A stretch of 64,000 nucleotides of DNA, taken from positions 64,001 to 128,000 of the forward strand of contig CAVYQE010000011.1 in the NCBI GenBank assembly GCA_963770565.1. Reading direction: 5' to 3'. The number at the start of each line of letters is the position of its first letter. The stretch's first letter is position 1. The translations under genes were made by a program, and so were the position numbers. This document shows positions 5,788-45,233 of the stretch, in pieces. The notes below the pieces were generated by a model. It searched no databases. It saw nothing but the letters and a program-made list of their open reading frames with translations, and was not told where the DNA came from. Origin of the DNA: an uncultured Actinomycetota bacterium. Its GTDB lineage: Bacteria > Actinomycetota > Actinomycetes > JAFAQI01.

Positions 5788-8054
5788 TCCGCCTCGGGCT
5801 GCGGCTCACGCTCAACGGCGGTCGCGAGACTCTCCTTCGCGTCCTGGTCACCGCCGCAGCCGTGGCGCTGGGTGTCGGCATGCTGCTCATCACGGTTGCC
5901 GGCCTCAACGCGGTCAACGCGCAGAACGCGCGATACGGCTGGCTCGAGACCGGCGCCGAGCCCCCCGCGCCGGCGGCCCAGCAGACCAACGGCCCTGATC
6001 CGTTGTGGTGGCTGCTGACCGCTGACGTGTTCGACGGTCATCAGATCGGCCGGGTGGACATCGCGGCCACCGGCCCGACTTCGACAGTGCCGCCGGGGAT
6101 GTCGCGGATCCCCGCTGCCGGCCAGTACTACGCCTCGCCGGCACTCGCCGCGCTGCTCAAGACGACGCCGGCGGCGGAGCTGGCCGCCCGTTATCCAGGC
6201 CACGAGGTCGGCCTGATCGGCTCCTCCGCGCTGCCCTCGCCGGACTCGCTGCTGATCGTGATCGGGCACAGCACCGCGCAGATGAGACATCTGCCCGGTG
6301 CGCAGGAGGTCGCATCGATCGCGACGAATCCGCCGAACGAATGCAACGGACCGTGCGCCAACTTGGGGATCGACAACAGCGGACTCGATCTGGTCTTCTC
6401 GATCGCCGCAGCGGCGCTGCTGTTCCCGATCCTGATCTTCATCGGTACGGCGTCGCGGTTGTCGAGCGCGCAACGCGATCGCCGGTTCGCCGCGATGCGC
6501 CTCGTTGGTGCCACCCCCGTGCAGATCTCGGTGATCTGTGCGGTCGAGTCGACGATCGCCGCCGTCGCCGGAGTCATCTTCGGTTTCGGGCTGTTCTTTG
6601 CGATTCGCCCGGCCATTGCGACCGTCCCGTTTACCGGCACCCGGTTCTTCCCCGGTGACCTGTCGCTCAGCCTCGTCGACATCGCCGTGGTCGCGATCGG
6701 AGTGCCGATTGCCGCGACCGTTGCGGCCCGGATCGCGATTCGCCGCGTGCAGACCTCACCGCTCGGCGTCAACCGGCACGTGACCCCGCCGAGCCCCAGG
6801 GCCTGGCGGTTGATCCCGGTCCTCGCCGGGCTGGGCGAGCTCGGCTACTTCGTGTACGCCGGCCAACCCGGCTCGACGTCAGGCCAGGTTGCGGCGTATC
6901 TGCCTGGCTTGCTCGTGACGATGGCCGGGCTGGTGATCGCCGGTCCCTGGCTGACGATGACCGGCGCGCGGCTGTTGACCCGTCGGGCGCGACGCCCAGC
7001 CGCGTTGATCGCCGGCCGGCGCCTGTCCGACCAGCCACAGGCATCGTTCCGGGCGATCAGCGGCCTGATGCTCGCGCTGTTCGTTACGACCGTGGCGATC
7101 GCGATCATCACCTCGGTCAGCGCATACAACGACGGCCCGGCGTTGCCCTCCGCTGCCAAGGCCACCGTGGTCGACCAGCTGACCAGCTTCATCCCCCCGG
7201 ACCATCTGGCGACCTCGGTTCCGTCACTGCCGGCTGGATTGCTGACGCAGTTGCACTCGCAGCCCGGCGTCACCGGGGTGTCGATCGTGCACGCCCTGTC
7301 CAAGCCGCGGACCGACCGCTCCGGTCTCGTCCCTTACCAGCCCCGCGGTCTCGTCGCGTGCGACGAGCTCGCCCGAACCCCCTCGATCGGCCGGTGCCTG
7401 GCCGGCGCGACCGCGGTCGTCGTGCAAGCCCAGGCGCAGGGCACCGACAGCCTCGGCGCATCGTCGCGGACCTGGCCGACGAGCACGATCTCGCCGGCCC
7501 GACTGGCCGCGTTGCCGGTGCAGTACGTCGTCGTCGCGACCAACGGCTCGACCCAGGCGATCGAGCAGGCGCGCACCACGCTCGAGCGTGCCTACCCGGT
7601 CCTGTACTCACCCGAAACGATTGCCGAGGGCCAGTCCCTCAGCTTCACGGCCCAGCGCACCGCCGAGTTTCGTCAGCTCGCCGATGTCGTGATCCTCGCC
7701 AGCCTGCCGATCGCCGGTTGCAGCCTCGCGGTGTCGGTCATCGCGGGTATCGGCGACCGTAAGCGGCCGTTCAGCCTGCTGCGGTTGACCGGTGCTCCGT
7801 TGTCGTTGTTGCGTCGAGTGATTGCGATCGAAAGCGCGTTGCCGCTGCTCGCGACCGCGGTCATCGCCATCGCCACCGGCTTCCTGGCCGCGGGTCTGTT
7901 CCTCAACTCGCAGCTGAGCGAGAGCCTGCGGGCCCCGGGGACGGGCTACTACCTGACCGTTGCCGCCGGCCTCGCGGCGTCGCTCGGGATCATCGGCACC
8001 ACGTTGCCGTTGCTGGCACGGATGACCGGACCGGAGACCGCGCGCAACGAGTGA
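5784..8054 (+). CDS. FtsX-like ABC transporter permease
   Basis: Two FtsX repeats (RRFAAMRLVGAT, RPFSLLRLTGAP), many TM segments, ATGA overlap with the ATPase. Confidence 0.9.
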   Translation: MIRLGLRLTLNGGRETLLRVLVTAAAVALGVGMLLITVAGLNAVNAQNARYGWLETGAEPPAPAAQQTNGPDPLWWLLTADVFDGHQIGRVDIAATGPTSTVPPGMSRIPAAGQYYASPALAALLKTTPAAELAARYPGHEVGLIGSSALPSPDSLLIVIGHSTAQMRHLPGAQEVASIATNPPNECNGPCANLGIDNSGLDLVFSIAAAALLFPILIFIGTASRLSSAQRDRRFAAMRLVGATPVQISVICAVESTIAAVAGVIFGFGLFFAIRPAIATVPFTGTRFFPGDLSLSLVDIAVVAIGVPIAATVAARIAIRRVQTSPLGVNRHVTPPSPRAWRLIPVLAGLGELGYFVYAGQPGSTSGQVAAYLPGLLVTMAGLVIAGPWLTMTGARLLTRRARRPAALIAGRRLSDQPQASFRAISGLMLALFVTTVAIAIITSVSAYNDGPALPSAAKATVVDQLTSFIPPDHLATSVPSLPAGLLTQLHSQPGVTGVSIVHALSKPRTDRSGLVPYQPRGLVACDELARTPSIGRCLAGATAVVVQAQAQGTDSLGASSRTWPTSTISPARLAALPVQYVVVATNGSTQAIEQARTTLERAYPVLYSPETIAEGQSLSFTAQRTAEFRQLADVVILASLPIAGCSLAVSVIAGIGDRKRPFSLLRLTGAPLSLLRRVIAIESALPLLATAVIAIATGFLAAGLFLNSQLSESLRAPGTGYYLTVAAGLAASLGIIGTTLPLLARMTGPETARNE

Positions 8055-26811: not shown

Positions 26812-27756
26812 ATGATGATGCAGACGTTGGACCCGCTCGACCTCATGCGCGAACTGGAACCAACCGTAGAAGCAAACCTCAACCGGCACCTGTCCATCGC
26901 CCAGGAGTGGATGCCGCACGAGTACGTGCCGTGGCGGCTCGGCCGTGACTTCGTCGGTCCCGACGGCGCGGCCTGGTCGGCCGATCAGTCCAGCCTGTCG
27001 CGGGAGGCCCAGATCTCCTTCGAGGTCAACCTGCTGACCGAGGACAACCTGCCGAGCTACCACCACGAGATCGCCACCGTCTTCGGCCGAGACGGTGCGT
27101 GGGGGACCTGGGTGCACCGCTGGACCGCGGAAGAGGGCCGGCATGCCTGCTGCATCCGCGACTACCTCCTGGTGACCCGGGCGGTCGACCCGATCACGCT
27201 CGAGCGCGACCGGATGGCGACGATGGAGGTCGGCTACTCCGCCGAGGGCAAGGGCCTAACCCGCGTGCTCGCCTACGTCAGCTTCCAGGAGCTCGCGACC
27301 CGGATCGCCCACCGCAACACCGGTCGGATCGCCGGCGACCCGGTGGCCGACAAGCTGATGGCCCGGATCTCCGCCGACGAGAACCTTCACATGGTCTTCT
27401 ACCGAGACCTGGTCCGCGCCGCGATGGACATCGATCCGGACCAGACCGTGGTCGCGATCGCCGCCGAGGTGCTGGGCTTCCGGATGCCCGGCACCGGCAT
27501 CCCGAACTTCAACCGCAAGAGCGTGCAGATCGCCAAGGCCGGGATCTACAACCTGCGGATCCACCGCGACGAGGTCATCGCCCCGGTGCTGCGGCACTGG
27601 AAGATCTTCGACCTGACCTTCACCTCGCCGGAGGCCCAGCAGGCCCAGGCCAGCCTGGCCGAGCATCTCGACCAGCTCGAGCAGCTCGCCCAGCAGTACG
27701 ACGAGCGGCTCGGAGCCAACCGCGAGCGGATCGCCGCCGGCAACGCCGCGCACTAG
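26812..27756 (+). CDS. Acyl-ACP desaturase (DesA1-like diiron protein)
   Basis: LTEDNLPSY, WTAEEGRH, FQELATRIAH, DENLH diiron motifs. Confidence 0.93.
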   Translation: MMMQTLDPLDLMRELEPTVEANLNRHLSIAQEWMPHEYVPWRLGRDFVGPDGAAWSADQSSLSREAQISFEVNLLTEDNLPSYHHEIATVFGRDGAWGTWVHRWTAEEGRHACCIRDYLLVTRAVDPITLERDRMATMEVGYSAEGKGLTRVLAYVSFQELATRIAHRNTGRIAGDPVADKLMARISADENLHMVFYRDLVRAAMDIDPDQTVVAIAAEVLGFRMPGTGIPNFNRKSVQIAKAGIYNLRIHRDEVIAPVLRHWKIFDLTFTSPEAQQAQASLAEHLDQLEQLAQQYDERLGANRERIAAGNAAH

Positions 27757-41532: not shown

Positions 41533-42699
41533 ATGTATGAGTTGACAGCGGCCGACCTCGACCTCCAGGCCCGGGCCAGGAGCTTCGCCGACGAGCTGAT
41601 CCCGTTCGAGGTGGAAGCCGAGATGGCCGGTGGCGAGCTGCCGCCGTCGGTGGTCGCCGCGCACCGCGCCCGGGCCCACGAGCTGGGCCTCTGCGCGACC
41701 AACATGCCGGTGGAGCTCGGTGGGCTCGGCTGCACCTCGCTCCAGCAGGTGCTGGTGCAGGAACAGATGGGCCGGGTGACCAACGCGCTCGGCTGGGTCG
41801 CCTCCACCCCGCCGTCGTGGTTTCCCGAGGTGGCGACCGAGCACCAGATCGAGCGCTGGCTGCGCCCGACCGTGTCGGGCGACCGCGAGGAGTGCTACGC
41901 GATCACCGAGGCGGGCGCCGGCTCCGACGTCGACGACATCGTGGCGACGGCGCGCCGCGACGGCGACGATTACGTCCTCGACGGCGAGAAGTGGCATGTG
42001 ACGTCGTACAACTCGGCCGACTACGCGTTCTTCCAGGCCAAGCTGGTCGGCGGGCCGAACGAAGGCGCGCACGCGATGTTCCTCGTCGACATCCCGAGCG
42101 ACGGCGTCCGCGTCGTCCGGACGCCGGCCTATACGCACACGATCAGCCACCACCACCCGATCGTCGCGTTCGAGGGGGTGCGGGTGCCGGCCGCCAACAT
42201 GGTCGGCGCAGAAGGCGACGGCATGCGCTTCGCGTACGAGTGGTTCCGGTTCGAGCGGATGATGGTCGCGGCCCGCTGCGTGGGTGCGGCCCAGCGGCTG
42301 GTCGAGGAAATGACCGCCTTCGCCACCGAGCGGGTAATCGGCGGTTCGCCGATCGTGGCCTTCGGTGCGATCCAGGCGATGCTGGCTGACAGCCTGACCG
42401 AGCTGTTCGCGGCCCGCCTGATCACTTACGAGGCCGCCCGCGGCGCCGACCAGGGGCGCGACCTCAAGGTGCAGCACGCCCAGTGCTCGATGGCGAAGCT
42501 CTATGCCTCCGAGATGGCCAACCGGGTGGCCGACCGGGCCGTGCAGGTCTTCGGCGGCCGCGGCTACATGCGCGAGAACGTCGCGGAGCGGTTCTTCCGT
42601 GAGCTGCGGGTCGAGCGGATCTGGGAGGGCACGAGCGAGATCCAGCGCGCGATCATCGCCGGCCGGATGGCGAAGGCCGGGGTCAACGGCATCGTCTGA
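41533..42699 (+). CDS. Acyl-CoA dehydrogenase
   Basis: AITEAGAGSD, GEKWHVT, AVQVFGGRGY, RIWEGTSEIQR. Confidence 0.93.
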   Translation: MYELTAADLDLQARARSFADELIPFEVEAEMAGGELPPSVVAAHRARAHELGLCATNMPVELGGLGCTSLQQVLVQEQMGRVTNALGWVASTPPSWFPEVATEHQIERWLRPTVSGDREECYAITEAGAGSDVDDIVATARRDGDDYVLDGEKWHVTSYNSADYAFFQAKLVGGPNEGAHAMFLVDIPSDGVRVVRTPAYTHTISHHHPIVAFEGVRVPAANMVGAEGDGMRFAYEWFRFERMMVAARCVGAAQRLVEEMTAFATERVIGGSPIVAFGAIQAMLADSLTELFAARLITYEAARGADQGRDLKVQHAQCSMAKLYASEMANRVADRAVQVFGGRGYMRENVAERFFRELRVERIWEGTSEIQRAIIAGRMAKAGVNGIV

Positions 42700-42727
42700 G
42701 CCGCCTGTTGCGGCTAGGGTCGCGACG

Positions 42728-43597
42728 ATGGCTGACGATGCCGCCGCGGGCCAGTGGGCGCAGCTCCCGGTCATCGGGGCCAAGCACCCGCTGATCGCGC
42801 AGTACGTCGCGATCCAGAACAACAGCAAACCCAATCCGCAGCGGCTGATCGTGCTGGCCGGATTGTGGGAGATCGAGTCCGCCCTGGACGCCGGCCTCGA
42901 GCTGGTCGCGGCGATCGTGTCGCCCGAGCTGTTCCGGGGCAACCGGGCGTCCGATCTGCTGACCCGGGCCCAGCGGGCCGGTGCACCGGTGTACGCAGTC
43001 AGCCCACGGCTGGCGGCTCGCCTGTCGGACCGGGACTCCTCCGACGGCCTGGCCGCGATCGCGATGTCGCGGCAGTGGAGCCTCGAGGACCTCACGTCGA
43101 TGGTCGCCCGGCCGCCTGAGCCTTCGCTGGTGCTCGTCCTCGACGGGCTCGAGGTCATGGGCAACGTCGGCACCGCGGTGCGTTCCGCGCAGGCCAGCGG
43201 TGCCGCTGCGGTCCTGCTGACCAACCGCCGGGTACGTTTGACTCACCCCCGGCTGATCCACGCCAGCATGGCCGCGTCGCTGACGATGCCGATGGTCGAC
43301 TGCACGGTCGAGTCGGCGGCCGGCTGGCTGCGGGCCCAGGGCTTCCAGGTGGTGCTGACCAACTCGCGGGCGGAGTCGACGTACAAGGCGCTGCGCTATG
43401 CGGACCGGGTCGCGCTGGTGCTTGGCAGCGAGCGCTACGGCATCAACCCGGAGTGGGAGCCGTACGCCGACGCGTCGGTGTCCATCCCGATGTCCGGGGG
43501 AGTCGACTCGTTGAACGTGGCGAACGCGGCCACCATCGTGCTGTTCGAGATCGCCAGCCGACAGCGCCCGGCCGAGTTCGGAATCGCTGATTCCTGA
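42728..43597 (+). CDS. TrmH/SpoU family RNA 2'-O-methyltransferase
   Basis: GNVGTAVRSA, LGSERYGI, IPMSGGVDSLNVANA SPOUT motifs. Confidence 0.9.
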   Translation: MADDAAAGQWAQLPVIGAKHPLIAQYVAIQNNSKPNPQRLIVLAGLWEIESALDAGLELVAAIVSPELFRGNRASDLLTRAQRAGAPVYAVSPRLAARLSDRDSSDGLAAIAMSRQWSLEDLTSMVARPPEPSLVLVLDGLEVMGNVGTAVRSAQASGAAAVLLTNRRVRLTHPRLIHASMAASLTMPMVDCTVESAAGWLRAQGFQVVLTNSRAESTYKALRYADRVALVLGSERYGINPEWEPYADASVSIPMSGGVDSLNVANAATIVLFEIASRQRPAEFGIADS

Positions 43598-43678
43598 ACC
43601 CGGCTTCGTTGGGAGAGAATTCGCCCGGTCTTCAGAGTGTCGCTGCCCACCGGGCCGGAAAAATGTGGGCAGAATGGC

Positions 43679-43715
43679 GTAAGGCCCCTCCAAGTATGAG
43701 TTGGAGGGGCCTTAC
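43679..43715. terminator. Strong hairpin, probable terminator
   Basis: Perfect 15-bp IR GTAAGGCCCCTCCAA-N7-TTGGAGGGGCCTTAC; no long U-tract. Confidence 0.65.
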
Positions 43716-43867
43716 TCGGCTCCGCTGCACCGGCGGCTCCGATTGCTCGGATCACCGTGCGTTGCCTTGCCGGTACCGGTTCCTTGAGACCCGCCCGATG
43801 AGCCGGTTACCCGACTTACCTTGCGTGTCGGAGTTTCCCCCGACTCGATCTCCGGCCTCCCGGTGAC
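43679..43867 (-). ncRNA. Candidate structured non-coding RNA (~190 nt), family not recognised
   Basis: Three GNRA-capped stems, long-range helices with G-U pairs on the minus strand, upstream promoter and 3' hairpin. Confidence 0.6.
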
Positions 43868-43874
43868 AAAGCAA

Positions 43875-43935
43875 TGTCTAGTGGGTGCACGCGCCGGGCA
43901 CAAGAGGTTTCTCAAAGTTTTTTCAAGATCTTTTT
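43875..43935 (-). promoter_or_regulatory. Sigma70-type promoter TTGTGC-N17-TAGACA with AT-rich UP-like tract
   Basis: -35 at 43898-43903, -10 at 43875-43880, A/T tracts to about 43935. Confidence 0.55.
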
Positions 43936-44021
43936 GCGTCCACACGATGTCCACAACGAAGCCGCCGTTATCCCCCGGAAAGATCACCTCATCCACCGCT
44001 TCATCCACCGCGTCGTCCACA
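43936..44021 (+). promoter_or_regulatory. Array of six co-oriented DnaA-box-like 9-mers
   Basis: GCGTCCACA, ATGTCCACA, TTATCCCCC, TCATCCACC x2, TCGTCCACA compared with TT(A/G)TCCACA. Confidence 0.6.
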
Positions 44022-44058
44022 GAAGCGGGTTTTTGGGCCGGATTTCGCTCTCCGCTGG

Positions 44059-44075
44059 TTGCGACAATGTCGCAG
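44059..44075. promoter_or_regulatory. Fur-family (Nur-like) operator upstream of NiCoT
   Basis: 7-1-7 palindrome TGCGACA-A-TGTCGCA about 20 bp before the NiCoT start. Confidence 0.55.
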
Positions 44076-44093
44076 TTAGGGCAGGATGAAAAC

Positions 44094-45233
44094 ATGTCCC
44101 CGCCGGCCGCGTCCACGCCGCTTCGCGGAAGGTTGGCACAGCTTCGGGCCGGGTTGACGCCGGCCGAGTGGACCCGGCTCGGCGGCATGGTCGCGGTGAT
44201 CATCGCGCTGCACGTGATCGGCTGGTTCACCCTGATCGCGGTCGTCTCGCCCCACCACTACAGCGTCGGCACCAAGACCTTCGGGATTGGGATGGGGGTG
44301 ACGGCGTACACCCTGGGGATGCGGCACGCCTTCGACGCGGACCACATCGCGGCCATCGACAACACCACCCGCAAGCTGATGGCTGACGGCAAGCGGCCGC
44401 TGTCGGTGGGGTTCTGGTTCTCCCTCGGGCACTCGACGATCGTGTTCGGGCTGGCCGGACTGCTCTCCTTCGGGGTGAAGGCGCTGGTCGGGCCGGTGCG
44501 CAACGACCAGTCGTCGCTGCACCACTACACCGGGGTGATCGGCACCAGCGTGTCCGGTACCTTTCTCTACGCGATCGCCGCGATCAACCTGGTGATCCTG
44601 GTCGGGATCGTGAAGGTCTTCCGCGACATCCGCCGCGGTGTCTACGACGAGGAAGCGCTCGAGGAGCAACTGAACAACCGCGGCCTGATGAACCGGATCC
44701 TCCGGCCGGTGATGCAGACGATCCGCCGCCCGGCCCAGATGTATCCGGTCGGGGTGCTGTTCGGGCTCGGTTTCGACACCGCGAGCGAGGTGGCGCTGCT
44801 CGTCCTGGCGTCCGCCGGGGCGGCGAGCGGCCTGCCCTGGTACGCGATCCTGTGCCTGCCGGTGCTCTTCGCCGCGGGCATGTGCCTGTTCGACACGATC
44901 GACGGCACCTTCATGAACTTCGCGTACGGCTGGGCGTTCTCCAAGCCGATCCGCAAGGTCTACTACAACCTGACCATCACGTCGCTGTCGGTGATGGTCG
45001 CGCTGGTCATCGGCACGGTCGAGCTGCTCGGCCTGCTTTCCCAGCAACTCGGCATCACAGGTCGGTTCTGGACGGACTTGCAGAACGCCGACATCAACAC
45101 CTTGGGCTTCATCATCGTCGGGATGTTTGCGGTCACCTGGATGATCGCGCTGCTGATCTGGCGGTTCGGCCGGATCGAGGAGAAGTGGAGCAGCGGCATG
45201 CGGGTTGCCGAGCTCGCGAACAGCTCGGACTGA
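44094..45233 (+). CDS. High-affinity nickel/cobalt transporter (HoxN/NixA, NiCoT)
   Basis: RHAFDADHIAAIDN signature, FSLGHS, LFGLGFDTASE. Confidence 0.95.
   Translation: MSPPAASTPLRGRLAQLRAGLTPAEWTRLGGMVAVIIALHVIGWFTLIAVVSPHHYSVGTKTFGIGMGVTAYTLGMRHAFDADHIAAIDNTTRKLMADGKRPLSVGFWFSLGHSTIVFGLAGLLSFGVKALVGPVRNDQSSLHHYTGVIGTSVSGTFLYAIAAINLVILVGIVKVFRDIRRGVYDEEALEEQLNNRGLMNRILRPVMQTIRRPAQMYPVGVLFGLGFDTASEVALLVLASAGAASGLPWYAILCLPVLFAAGMCLFDTIDGTFMNFAYGWAFSKPIRKVYYNLTITSLSVMVALVIGTVELLGLLSQQLGITGRFWTDLQNADINTLGFIIVGMFAVTWMIALLIWRFGRIEEKWSSGMRVAELANSSD

What the first reader, a model, noticed from the sequence alone, without database searches (positions are those of the whole stretch)
43679..43903. 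Candidate unannotated ~190-nt structured ncRNA with its own promoter and terminator
Seen on the minus strand: promoter TTGTGC-N17-TAGACA, predicted start G43867, and a perfect 15-bp 3' hairpin (43679-43715). Three stems are capped by GNRA tetraloops: GUCGGGG-GAAA-CUCCGAC (43844-43827), AGUCGG-GUAA-CCGGCU (43816-43801) and CCGA-GCAA-UCGG (43750-43739). Enclosing helices are GUCACCG/CGGUGAU (43867-61 with 43757-51) and GAGGCC/GGUCUC (43859-54 with 43791-86). The G-U pairs and GNRA loops work only on the minus strand, which suggests selection on RNA structure. There is no credible ORF inside, and no gene downstream on that strand, so it does not look like a riboswitch leader. I do not see tRNA, tmRNA, RNase P, SRP or 6C signatures. 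Inference: a stand-alone multi-branched RNA.
Basis: partly seen in the sequence, partly recalled or inferred. Interest (0 to 1): 0.85.

Follow-up and report, generated by a model that had tools for sequence, protein, structure and literature searches.

The report
Widespread unannotated actinobacterial small RNA
This is a real, strongly folded and highly expressed small RNA gene that many soil actinobacteria share but no RNA catalogue lists, and its promoter sits under a row of binding sites for the DNA-replication starter protein DnaA.

Summary
The finding holds. Window 43867-43679 (minus strand) encodes a ~190-nt structured RNA. It has a conserved sigma-A-type promoter and a 15-bp terminator hairpin.

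- **Structure:** 91% of cells pair in 14 relatives and 89% in 79 distinct relatives. 26 of 68 and 65 of 67 pairs show compensatory changes. Slid controls give 27-45%.
- **Expression:** soil metatranscriptome contigs from three studies cover only 43691-43854, at word depths up to thousands. The flanks read zero.
- **Known families:** no Rfam 15 family matches. RNase P, SRP, tmRNA and 6C lie elsewhere in the genome. 6S was not found.
- **Distribution:** the model hits 59 of 151 genomes of the class and 1 of 150 others in the phylum. Gene neighbours vary.
- **New here:** six same-orientation DnaA-box-like 9-mers lie upstream, the densest such cluster in the 4.4-Mb assembly. The terminator loop CUCAUAC is invariant and nearly copies the tRNA(CAU) anticodon loop.

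Function is unknown. My best guess is a DnaA-controlled, trans-acting RNA. Ms1 synteny is not met, but the supplementary lists of Ms1 candidates could not be read.

The parts
43936..44021 (-). Array of six DnaA-box-like 9-mers, all in the RNA's orientation: TGTGGACGA 44021-44013, GGTGGATGA 44009-44001, GGTGGATGA 43997-43989, GGGGGATAA 43976-43968, TGTGGACAT 43955-43947, TGTGGACGC 43944-43936. Spacings are 12, 12, 21, 21 and 11 bp.
   Evidence: One search lists them. In one search this is the densest [TG]GTGGA[CT] cluster of the whole assembly (5 in 84 bp against 0.49 per kb). Only 5 clusters reach 4 or more in 200 bp, and one of them lies beside dnaA. The boxes are column-conserved in 12 relatives while the spacers vary.
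43917..43935 (-). A/T-rich element AAAAAGATCTTGAAAAAAC between the last box and the -35 hexamer. It may be an UP-like element (inferred).
   Evidence: Relatives carry AAAGAATCTTGAAA at the same place. Within G000 it matches only here at up to 2 mismatches when followed by a promoter.
43875..43903 (-). Promoter: -35 TTGTGC (43903-43898), a 17-nt spacer, -10 TAGACA (43880-43875).
   Evidence: In A7 the TTG.GC of the -35 and the TA.A of the -10 are invariant in 12 of 12 sequences. A TTGYG-N16-20-TAVAHN pattern was found in 83 of 109 related loci. The strict sigma-70 scan found nothing.
43773..43867 (-). 5' domain. P1 is 43867-43860 with 43779-43773. P2 is 43852-43847 with 43791-43786. The junction carries hairpin P3 (43844-43827, loop GAAA) and arm P4 (43825-43792, apical hairpin 43816-43801, loop GUAA).
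   Evidence: MFE fold. Pair counts on A1 and A4. P3 has 5 of 7 pairs with changes on both sides in A1.
43717..43772 (-). 3' domain: a long irregular hairpin with conserved internal loops (GCAACGCA and GGUGCAG in close relatives) and the apical hairpin CCGA-GCAA-UCGG (43750-43739).
   Evidence: helices 7-8, about 91% paired. The apical hairpin gcCGaGcnAuCGg is one of only three sequence-conserved blocks in 80 relatives.
43679..43715 (-). Terminator hairpin: 15 bp with the loop CUCAUAC (43700-43694).
   Evidence: It is single-copy in G000. The stem varies with compensatory changes while the loop is the same in 32 of 32 distinct class-wide hits. The loop equals 6 of 7 letters of the anticodon loop of the three tRNA(CAU) genes of G000.
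43666..43678 (-). Weak U-containing tail CGCCAUUCUGCCC. The 3' end probably lies here (inferred).
   Evidence: Relatives show CAUUUUGCC-like tails at the same distance. The 3' end was not mapped.
43691..43854 (.). The stretch covered by contigs of soil metatranscriptomes.
   Evidence: X1 covers 43691-43852, X2 43706-43854 and X3 43702-43854 (depth 2040), each with 0 mismatches. X4 pieces fall within 43710-43854 (summed depth up to 23480). All bins outside 43679-43865 read 0.
42503..43597 (+). Convergent neighbour: a SpoU-family RNA methyltransferase. This is context and not part of the element.
   Evidence: PF00588, E = 2.5e-31.
44094..45233 (+). Divergent neighbour: a NicO/NiCoT nickel-cobalt transporter. 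This is context and not part of the element.
   Evidence: PF03824, E = 4.7e-102.

Best explanation
Window 43867 to about 43667 (minus strand) is a stand-alone gene for an abundant, compactly folded ~190-200-nt small RNA. It belongs to a large family found across the class Actinomycetes (the name rests on the record titles). No Rfam model covers this family.

**Shown**
- The fold has two domains: a junction closed by P1 with two GNRA hairpins, and a long hairpin capped by a GCAA loop. A G+C-rich terminator hairpin follows.
- Covariation supports this fold.
- The promoter hexamers are conserved.
- The RNA is expressed as a discrete species.
- The gene has no fixed neighbour.

**Inferred mechanism**
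- Transcription starts from a sigma-A-type promoter.
- DnaA sets the promoter's activity by oligomerising on six phased, same-orientation boxes at about -70 to -155. RNA level would then report the replication-initiation state, as DnaA does at some Bacillus promoters (recalled).
- The RNA acts in trans.
- The GNRA-stapled body serves as a stable scaffold.
- The invariant loop CUCAUAC on the terminator is the recognition surface for a very conserved partner. It has a U-turn (YUNR) shape like a tRNA(CAU) anticodon loop. I think a protein or the ribosome is a more likely partner than a set of mRNAs.
For: **Structure**
- z = -7.3 for the minus strand.
- On A1, 91.1% of cells pair and 26 of 68 pairs have changes on both sides. 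No shuffle of 500 reached this, and slid controls give 27-44%.
- On A4, 88.9% of cells pair and 65 of 67 pairs are compensatory, with slid controls at 37-45%.

**Family**
- BLAST hits in 26 of 61 relatives.
- 80 model hits at E <= 1e-10 in 70 loci.
- 59 of 151 genomes and 41 of 96 genera of the class, against 1 weak hit in 150 other genomes of the phylum.

**Expression**
- Contigs from 3 studies are confined to 43691-43854.

**Stand-alone gene**
- The top neighbour families are ABC_tran in 10 of 92 upstream ORFs and DHDPS in 11 of 106 downstream ORFs.
- No family recurs in more than 2 of 31 flanking ORFs in the class-wide set.

**DnaA boxes**
- This is the densest cluster in G000, and the same core marks the dnaA-adjacent region.
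- The boxes are column-conserved.
- At least 2 same-orientation boxes lie upstream in 75 of 109 hairpin loci, against 3 of 109 in the opposite orientation.
- In the class-wide set the figures are 14 of 32 against 0 of 32.

**Loop**
- It is invariant in 32 of 32 hits over at least 10 stem variants.
- It equals 6 of 7 letters of the tRNA(CAU) anticodon loops of G000.
Against: - No partner, target or phenotype is known, and nothing here tests DnaA binding.
- Boxes are lacking (0 strict cores) in 30 of 109 hairpin loci and 10 of 32 class-wide hits. Some of these are hairpins behind unrelated genes or hits with misplaced 5' ends.
- Distance to dnaA is not conserved: 91 kb, 382 kb, 1.27 Mb and 1.3 Mb in four genomes.
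- The GC skew does not turn at the locus.
- The same hairpin also ends unrelated units in some genomes. It may simply be a favoured terminator.
- Loop invariance is partly an ascertainment effect. The pattern scan fixed the loop, and the model and BLAST both lean on the hairpin.
- Contigs give no strand and no ends.
- The consensus scan saw no promoter or terminator.
Confidence: 0.55

Rival explanations
1. It is a functional analogue of 6S, Ms1 or CoRP. Under this reading it is an abundant RNA that binds RNA polymerase (core or holoenzyme) and stores or blocks it.
For: - G000 has RNase P, SRP, tmRNA and 6C elsewhere but no 6S match.
- The Ms1-syntenic spot beside the HAD-IB hydrolase and 6C is filled by a small membrane-protein ORF. 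No IGR is left for an RNA.
- The RNA is very abundant in RNA libraries.
- Passages of PMC11077062 propose that each species has one abundant RNAP-binding RNA, and that unknown classes exist in actinobacteria.
- The discussion section of PMC9130861 reports neither Ms1 nor its synteny in Frankiales and Geodermatophilales. Record titles here include Frankiaceae and Geodermatophilaceae.
Against: - The covariation-supported fold has no closing stem joining the two ends and no central open-promoter-like bubble.
- There is no Rfam match of any kind at E <= 10.
- The family also occurs in taxa for which PMC9130861 lists Ms1 candidates (Kribbella, Jiangella, Streptosporangiaceae; its Table 4). That would give those genomes two such RNAs, unless the two are the same thing.
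- DnaA boxes are not a known feature of 6S or Ms1 genes. No mention was found.
Confidence: 0.2
2. The functional unit is the DNA: a DnaA-titrating or DnaA-modulating box cluster, like datA, DARS or the Bacillus box clusters. Under this reading the RNA only reflects the transcription that tunes the site.
For: - This is the densest box cluster of the genome, denser than the one beside dnaA.
- Tandem arrays of up to four units exist, and the first three each have their own boxes, in G042. That would add up to a large DnaA sink.
- The boxes are as conserved as the promoter.
Against: - A by-product RNA would not keep 65 of 67 base pairs through compensatory change, three GNRA loops and an invariant loop.
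- About a third of family members lack strict boxes.
- The position relative to dnaA is not conserved.
Confidence: 0.1
3. It is a base-pairing sRNA. The U-turn loop presents CAUAC to GUAUG(AG) sequences around start codons of target mRNAs and represses or activates them.
For: - The loop fits the YUNR U-turn motif of antisense recognition loops (recalled knowledge).
- The loop is invariant.
- GTATGAG occurs 107 times in G000, and in 13 cases the ATG opens a long high-GC3 frame.
Against: - A seed of 5-7 nt is short.
- 107 sites is close to what composition alone would give (my rough estimate is about 190), so there is no enrichment.
- No conserved target was identified.
- Complete invariance over a whole class fits a protein or ribosomal partner better than co-evolving mRNAs.
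Confidence: 0.1
4. It is a cis-regulatory leader (riboswitch, attenuator or autoregulatory operator) of a downstream gene, for example metG.
For: metG lies 90-100 nt downstream on the same strand in 9 stored loci, which represent about 7 distinct places. These are L120/L013, L011, L136, L025, L021, L010/L207 and L091. The hairpin loop copies the anticodon loop that MetRS reads.
Against: - In the window the next gene is convergent.
- Downstream genes vary. DHDPS is the best at 11 of 106, and MetRS is found in 3 of 106 in that set.
- Where metG follows, it has its own TAGGCT -10 and a leaderless ATG after the terminator, as it does in G000, where no such RNA precedes it.
- All metG cases have MetRS proteins 84-100% identical to each other, so they may be one inherited arrangement.
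Confidence: 0.03
5. It encodes a small protein. Candidates are the plus-strand ORF 43609-43866 and the minus-strand ORFs that overlap it.
For: Open frames of 40-172 aa overlap the region on both strands, as is usual in DNA of about 65-70% G+C.
Against: - Homolog lengths differ by non-multiples of three: 189, 186, 188, 184, 187, 194, 193, 167 and 209 nt.
- The longest open frame changes strand and phase between homologs.
- Substitutions are paired across helices and do not follow a three-base period.
Confidence: 0.02

Closest known systems
Ms1 RNA (MTS2823, scr3559) of Actinobacteria
   Same: It is an abundant stand-alone sRNA of 230-300 nt in the same class. It has a sigma-A-like promoter and a terminator hairpin, and it is weakly conserved in sequence outside close relatives (PMC4191392 passages; PMC9130861 sections).
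   Different: - Ms1 is defined by its position beside a HAD-IB hydrolase, one gene from 6C. Here HAD-type domains appear in 2 of 106 downstream ORFs, in none of the 25 most frequent families upstream, and not among the listed families of 31 class-wide flanks.
- In G000 the HAD-6C locus is on another contig.
- Ms1 is described as a long hairpin with a central bubble, which this fold is not.
- Ms1 candidate lists are in supplements that I could not open.
6S RNA (Rfam RF00013)
   Same: It has a similar size (about 185 nt), high abundance and a housekeeping-like distribution. It is the one common stable RNA not found in G000.
   Different: There is no match to RF00013 in the region at E <= 10 or anywhere in the genome. 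The 5' and 3' ends do not pair and there is no central bubble.
raiA motif RNA
   Same: [quoted passage not shown] It is very abundant and its function is unknown (abstract of PMC12968392 as listed). Its size of about 200 nt and its occurrence in Actinobacteria are recalled.
   Different: No Rfam family, raiA included, matched at E <= 10. The architecture here ends in an invariant anticodon-like terminator loop, and the gene carries DnaA boxes.
DnaA-box clusters outside oriC (E. coli datA and DARS; Bacillus subtilis clusters such as the one upstream of sda; recalled knowledge)
   Same: It is a dense array of same-orientation DnaA boxes away from the origin, placed upstream of a promoter.
   Different: Here the array belongs to a structured-RNA gene and travels with it to different genomic contexts and into tandem copies. 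DnaA binding was not tested.
Anticodon-arm mimics in mRNA operators (E. coli thrS operator; recalled knowledge) and YUNR recognition loops of antisense RNAs
   Same: A hairpin loop copies the 7-nt anticodon loop of a tRNA. Here it is CUCAUAC against CUCAUAA of the tRNA(CAU) genes.
   Different: The stem is 15 bp and doubles as a terminator. The RNA is not a leader of the synthetase gene. Position 38 is C and not A. No binding was tested.

Membership tests
Any Rfam 15 family | A covariance-model match at or near the family's gathering score | tested here: not met
   The whole window at gathering score gave only ASdes at 27133-27200. Region 43400-44300 at E <= 10 gave only chance-level miRNA and leader hits of 12-18 bits on the hairpin. 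16 and 20 related loci at gathering score gave only tRNAs.
6S RNA | A match to RF00013 | tested here: not met
   No match in the region or in the 4.43-Mb assembly, which is 94.9% complete.
6S RNA | A closing stem that pairs the 5' and 3' ends, with a large central bubble | tested here: not met
   The covariation-supported fold is a 5' junction domain, a 3' hairpin domain and a terminator.
6S RNA / Ms1 RNA | Binding to RNA polymerase holoenzyme (6S) or core (Ms1) | not testable with these tools
   This needs RIP-seq, a pull-down or a gradient co-sedimentation.
Ms1 RNA | Gene lies beside a HAD-IB hydrolase, one gene from 6C (PMC9130861 sections; PMC6582537 passages) | tested here: not met
   The window's neighbours are SpoU and NicO. 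G000's HAD (PF12710) and 6C lie on contig C1. PF00702 (a HAD-type hydrolase domain) appears in 2 of 106 downstream ORFs. No HAD family is among the 25 most frequent upstream families of 92 ORFs, nor among the 25 listed of 47 families in 31 class-wide flanks. No 6C lies within 1.5 kb in 20 loci.
Ms1 RNA | A long hairpin with a central bubble and two short end hairpins (PMC4191392 passage) | tested here: not met
   Searches support a different fold.
Ms1 RNA | Sequence identity with the published Ms1 candidates of 824 species | not tested
No Ms1 sequence was on hand.
Riboswitch / cis leader | A conserved downstream gene class on the same strand | tested here: not met
   The window has a convergent gene. 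The best downstream family is found in 11 of 106 loci. metG, where adjacent, has its own leaderless promoter.
Intrinsic terminator | A G+C-rich hairpin followed by a U tract | tested here: inconclusive
   The 15-bp hairpin is present. The tail has only AUUCU here and AUUUU in relatives. The scan, which needs at least 5 T in 8, found none. RNA contigs stop inside the hairpin region.
DnaA-box cluster | Several close matches to the DnaA-box consensus (a recalled 9-mer) in a short stretch, using the motif that the same genome uses beside dnaA | tested here: met
   Six 9-mers have 1-2 mismatches to the consensus. This is the top cluster of the genome, and the same core clusters next to dnaA at C2:801939-802149.
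DnaA-box cluster | Bound by DnaA | not testable with these tools
   This needs EMSA, footprinting or ChIP.
tRNA anticodon-loop mimic | A 7-nt loop with pyrimidine-32, U33, a three-letter anticodon and purine-37 | tested here: met
   The loop C-U-C-A-U-A-C compares with CUCAUAA in the three tRNA(CAU) genes of G000. This is a sequence likeness only. I estimate a chance fit to the general Y-U-NNN-R pattern at about 1 in 16.

The most novel reading that the evidence does not exclude
The RNA is a replication-gated tRNA(CAU) anticodon-arm decoy. DnaA sets its level. Its invariant CUCAUAC loop is read by a factor that normally reads the Met or initiator anticodon loop, such as MetRS, a loop-modifying enzyme, an anticodon nuclease, or the 30S P site on AUG. 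This would link the state of chromosome replication to translation initiation across a whole class of bacteria.
Probability: 0.1. Interest if true: 0.92.

Novelty: new variant of a known kind. Interest (0 to 1): 0.78.

Why it matters
Stable, abundant structured RNAs shared by a whole bacterial class are few: RNase P, SRP, tmRNA, 6S/Ms1, 6C and raiA. Each has turned out, or is expected, to touch a core process. This family was found in 41 of 96 sampled genera of Actinomycetes, is among the loud signals in soil RNA libraries, and is in no RNA catalogue.

Two features make it directly testable.
- A phased DnaA-box array is tied to the gene. To my knowledge this has not been described for a structured sRNA. 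It offers a handle on how actinobacteria couple replication to other processes.
- A single invariant loop nearly copies the tRNA(CAU) anticodon loop. This names a short list of candidate partners.

It may also fill the '6S/Ms1 slot' in lineages such as Frankiales, where no such RNA has been found. Cultured carriers exist (Kribbella), so knock-out, pull-down and RIP-seq experiments are feasible.

Tried and rejected
- **Known RNA families:** Rfam gave nothing at gathering score or at E <= 10, here or in related loci.
- **Divergent RNase P, SRP, tmRNA or 6C:** all four are found elsewhere in G000.
- **Origin of replication:** the cumulative GC skew of contig C11 keeps rising through the locus, and dnaA is on another contig.
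- **Mobile element, plasmid or phage origin:** blastn found no match in 72,556 plasmid or 50,697 phage records.
- **Ms1 by synteny:** not met.
  - I looked at the HAD/6C regions of four genomes from families without a model hit. Rfam found only 6C there. With filters off, the model gave one weak hit (20.7 bits) in an intergenic region of L227 that has one DnaA box. I could not tell whether it is related.
- **Conserved targets for the loop:** GTATGAG sites in G000 show no excess. This was not followed into other genomes.
- **Coding test by longest ORF:** uninformative at this G+C content, apart from the length differences.
- **A/T-rich promoter element as a general regulator site:** it is unique to this locus in G000.
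- **Literature:** full-text searches found no description of this RNA, of a DnaA-box-linked sRNA in actinobacteria, or of the hairpin's letters. One search turned out to be about mass-spectrometry 'MS1'.
- **Metatranscriptome limits:** the parts of the RNA not covered by contigs (43855-43867 and 43679-43690) are not evidence about its ends.
Full report
**1. What is in the sequence**

Read on the minus strand, the region holds, in order:
- Six 9-mers that resemble the DnaA box, from 44021 down to 43936.
- An A/T-rich stretch, AAAAAGATCTTGAAAAAAC (43935-43917).
- TTGTGC (43903-43898), 17 nt, then TAGACA (43880-43875).
- Seven nt later, G43867.
- A 189-nt stretch that ends in a perfect 15-bp hairpin (43715-43679, loop CUCAUAC).
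- The tail CGCCAUUCUGCCC.

As RNA, the minus strand folds at -104.8 kcal/mol (z = -7.3, 0 of 200 shuffles as good). The plus strand folds at -87.5 kcal/mol (z = -4.1). The simple consensus scan reports no promoter or terminator here. Its criteria (a TATAAT-like hexamer ending in T, and at least 5 T after the stem) do not fit actinobacterial signals of this type.

The flanking genes are on the plus strand:
- a SpoU-family methyltransferase ending at 43597, convergent with the RNA;
- a NicO/NiCoT transporter starting at about 44094, divergent from it.

**2. Is it a known RNA?**

Rfam 15 gives nothing for this stretch. At gathering score the window has only an ASdes match at 27133-27200. At E <= 10 the region gives only chance-level hits on the hairpin.

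The assembly is 4.43 Mb in 11 contigs and 94.9% complete. It has RNase P RNA, SRP RNA, tmRNA and 6C elsewhere. It has no 6S match.

**3. Relatives and structure**

BLAST over 61 related genomes found the stretch in 26. It is full-length in the same genus, in other genera and in one other family.

An alignment of 14 such sequences (A1) gave an RNAalifold structure in which 21 of 49 pairs have compensatory changes. Mapping the window's MFE structure on A1 gave:
- 91.1% of cells paired;
- 26 of 68 pairs with changes on both sides;
- 0 of 500 shuffles as good;
- 27-44% of cells paired when the 3' partners are slid.

A covariance model (R1) then aligned 80 hits from 70 loci, 79 of them distinct. 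On this alignment 88.9% of cells pair, 65 of 67 pairs are compensatory, and slid controls give 37-45%. This alignment is fitted to the model and so leans towards it.

The supported fold is:
- P1: 43867-43860 with 43779-43773.
- P2: 43852-43847 with 43791-43786.
- Two arms capped by GAAA and GUAA.
- A second domain (43772-43717) capped by GCAA.
- The terminator hairpin.

Across the 80 relatives, only three blocks are conserved in sequence:
- ccGGGnraCcGg;
- gcCGaGcnAuCGg;
- the terminal hairpin gaGGCCCCUCCAnCUCAUACnUGGAGGGGCCuc.

The median length is 187 nt.

**4. Distribution**

- **Pattern scan:** All 80 titles shown are Actinomycetota: Streptosporangiaceae, Kribbella, Frankiaceae, Jatrophihabitantaceae, Geodermatophilaceae, Jiangellaceae, Ornithinibacter, and Pseudonocardiales, Mycobacteriales and Propionibacteriales MAGs.
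- **Full-length family members:** the model found full-length matches in most of the first 100 of these loci.
- **Class sample:** in an even sample of the class it hit 59 of 151 genomes, 57 of 149 good-quality ones and 41 of 96 genera.
- **Family pattern:** it is nearly all-or-none. Examples are 7/7, 6/7, 6/7, 6/7 and 4/4 against 0/7 in four families.
- **Rest of the phylum:** 1 of 150 other genomes gave a weak hit.
- **Caveat:** the model comes from one clade, and large runs use stricter filters, so these figures are lower bounds.
- **Copy number:** the RNA is single-copy in G000. Several genomes carry tandem copies 0.4-0.7 kb apart, up to four in G042.
- **Plasmids and phages:** no plasmid or phage record matches.

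**5. Expression**

Sampled words of the 501-nt query were found in soil, leaf and wood-decay metatranscriptomes. Contigs of four runs from three studies were laid on 43560-44060.
- X1 covers 43691-43852.
- X2 covers 43706-43854.
- X3 covers 43702-43854. It is flanked by adapter letters and has a word depth of 2040.
- X4 gives many pieces within 43710-43854, with summed depths up to 23480.

The main contigs have no mismatch. Every bin outside 43679-43865 reads zero, including 120 nt of the SpoU gene's end and 190 nt of the upstream region.

The stretch is therefore present in RNA libraries as a short, very abundant species while its flanks are not. Contigs give no strand and no exact ends.

**6. 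Stand-alone gene**

- Among the ORFs nearest upstream in 92 loci, the commonest Pfam family is ABC_tran (10 of 92).
- Among the ORFs nearest downstream in 106 loci, the commonest is DHDPS (11 of 106).
- In 31 flanking ORFs of the class-wide set, no family occurs more than twice.

Both ORF sets were picked by a GC3 rule in my script. Loci without such an ORF within reach were left out.

This pattern argues against a leader or riboswitch, and against the Ms1 locus.

**7. Ms1**

Ms1 is defined in the papers by three things (sections of PMC9130861; passages of PMC4191392 and PMC6582537):
- RNAP-core binding;
- a long hairpin with a central bubble;
- a gene beside a HAD-IB hydrolase, one gene from 6C.

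In G000 the HAD gene (PF12710) and 6C lie on contig C1. The space on the far side of HAD is taken by a small membrane-protein ORF, and that ORF is conserved in relatives.

HAD-type domains are rare next to this RNA (2 of 106). No 6C lies within 1.5 kb in 20 loci. On the features I could test, this is not Ms1.

Two cautions apply.
- PMC9130861 found its candidates in 109 genera by sequence similarity of intergenic regions. That needs a very conserved block such as the one seen here.
- Its candidate lists are in supplements that I could not open.

I put the chance that part of this family already sits in those lists at about one in five.

**8. The DnaA boxes**

The six 9-mers have 1-2 mismatches to the DnaA-box consensus, which is a recalled 9-mer. 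All point the same way, with spacings of 12, 12, 21, 21 and 11 bp.

The core [TG]GTGGA[CT] occurs 2189 times in the assembly, or 0.49 per kb. Only five places have 4 or more in 200 bp. This locus is the densest (5 in 84 bp), and another of the five lies next to dnaA.

In 12 relatives from at least seven genera and two families, the boxes, the A/T element and the two promoter hexamers are conserved column by column while the spacers drift.

| Set | n | >=2 same-orientation cores upstream | >=2 opposite-orientation cores upstream | >=2 downstream |
|---|---|---|---|---|
| Hairpins with enough flank | 109 | 75 | 3 | 5 (tandem copies) |
| Class-wide hits (not chosen by the pattern) | 32 | 14 | 0 | not tallied |

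About a third of members lack strict boxes. Some of those are hairpins behind unrelated genes.

The locus is not the origin. The GC skew does not turn, and its distance to dnaA in four genomes ranges from 91 kb to 1.3 Mb.

**9. The loop**

In 32 of 32 distinct forward hits of the class-wide sample, the 7-nt loop is CUCAUAC. The stem beneath it changes by compensatory pairs in at least ten variants. Detection leans on the hairpin, so variants may be under-sampled.

The three tRNA(CAU) genes of G000 all have the anticodon loop CUCAUAA. The RNA's loop is therefore the same in 6 of 7 letters, with U at position 33, CAU as the anticodon and A at position 37. It also fits the YUNR U-turn motif (recalled).

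In some relatives, metG follows the RNA by 90-100 nt. There metG has its own -10 and a leaderless start, as it does in G000, and the cases may share one ancestor. I record this adjacency but do not lean on it.

The same hairpin also closes unrelated units in a few genomes.

**10. Reading**

*Shown:* a conserved, structured, expressed, stand-alone sRNA gene of a large family absent from Rfam.

*Inferred:*
- DnaA controls its promoter.
- It acts in trans.
- The invariant loop is the contact surface.

*Rivals:*
- an RNAP-binding analogue of 6S/Ms1 (the open slot in this genome, though the fold is unlike);
- a DNA-level DnaA sink with an incidental transcript (contradicted by the covariation);
- a loop-seeded base-pairing sRNA;
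- a leader;
- a small ORF.

**11. Verdict**

The element is a new family of a known kind (a stable structured sRNA) with two unusual features. Interest is high. The main risk to novelty is an unseen overlap with published Ms1 candidate lists.

Genomes G043 and G051 (unpublished) appear only as rows in tallies.

Noticed in passing
window 27133-27200 (-): This is the only Rfam gathering-score match in the window: ASdes (RF01781), 41.4 bits against a cut-off of 40. It is presumably antisense to a desaturase gene.
   Followed up: no
L221 (G042:C1:1888927-1892086); also L226, L014/L028, L047, L082, L104, L116, L146, L097, L125: Tandem arrays of two to four copies of the RNA gene sit 0.4-0.7 kb apart. 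In G042 the first three copies each have their own DnaA-box group.
   Followed up: partly
L033, L081, L142, L044, L045, L065, L106, L107, L112, L124: The same hairpin, with the same loop, stands behind sequence unrelated to this RNA. In some cases this is next to ABC/FecCD transporter genes, with no DnaA boxes upstream. It may be a reused or bidirectional terminator, or the remnant of a lost RNA gene.
   Followed up: partly
L120, L013, L011, L136, L025, L021, L010/L207, L091: In these relatives the RNA lies between an rsmI-like TP_methylase gene and metG (MetRS). metG starts 90-100 nt after the hairpin from its own TAGGCT -10 as a leaderless mRNA. This is curious given the CAU anticodon-like loop, but it may be a single inherited arrangement.
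   Followed up: partly
L016 / L144 (G011): In this variant the 5' domain is joined directly to the terminator hairpin and the whole 3' domain is missing. The 3' domain is therefore dispensable in at least one lineage.
   Followed up: no
L185 (G000:C1:529000-547000), 7217-7660 (-): The Ms1-syntenic place of this genome (HAD-IB hydrolase, 6C RNA, CpaE/CpaF-like genes) holds a conserved ORF of about 145 aa for a small membrane protein, where mycobacteria have Ms1.
   Followed up: partly
L227 (G039:C18:37500-49500), 2128-2366: This intergenic region near 6C belongs to a genome of a family without model hits. It has one perfect DnaA-box-like 9-mer, a possible short RNA with a terminator hairpin, and a weak R1 hit (20.7 bits). 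Whether it is related is unclear.
   Followed up: no
L069, L071, L074, L080, L133: This sub-group has the A/T-rich element, promoter, RNA body and hairpin but no strict DnaA-box cores upstream. These genomes often carry two copies.
   Followed up: no
G000:C9:16045-16156; C1:1556239-1556443; C2:620080-620245: These are three further clusters of four DnaA-box cores in 200 bp or less in the assembly. They were not examined.
   Followed up: no
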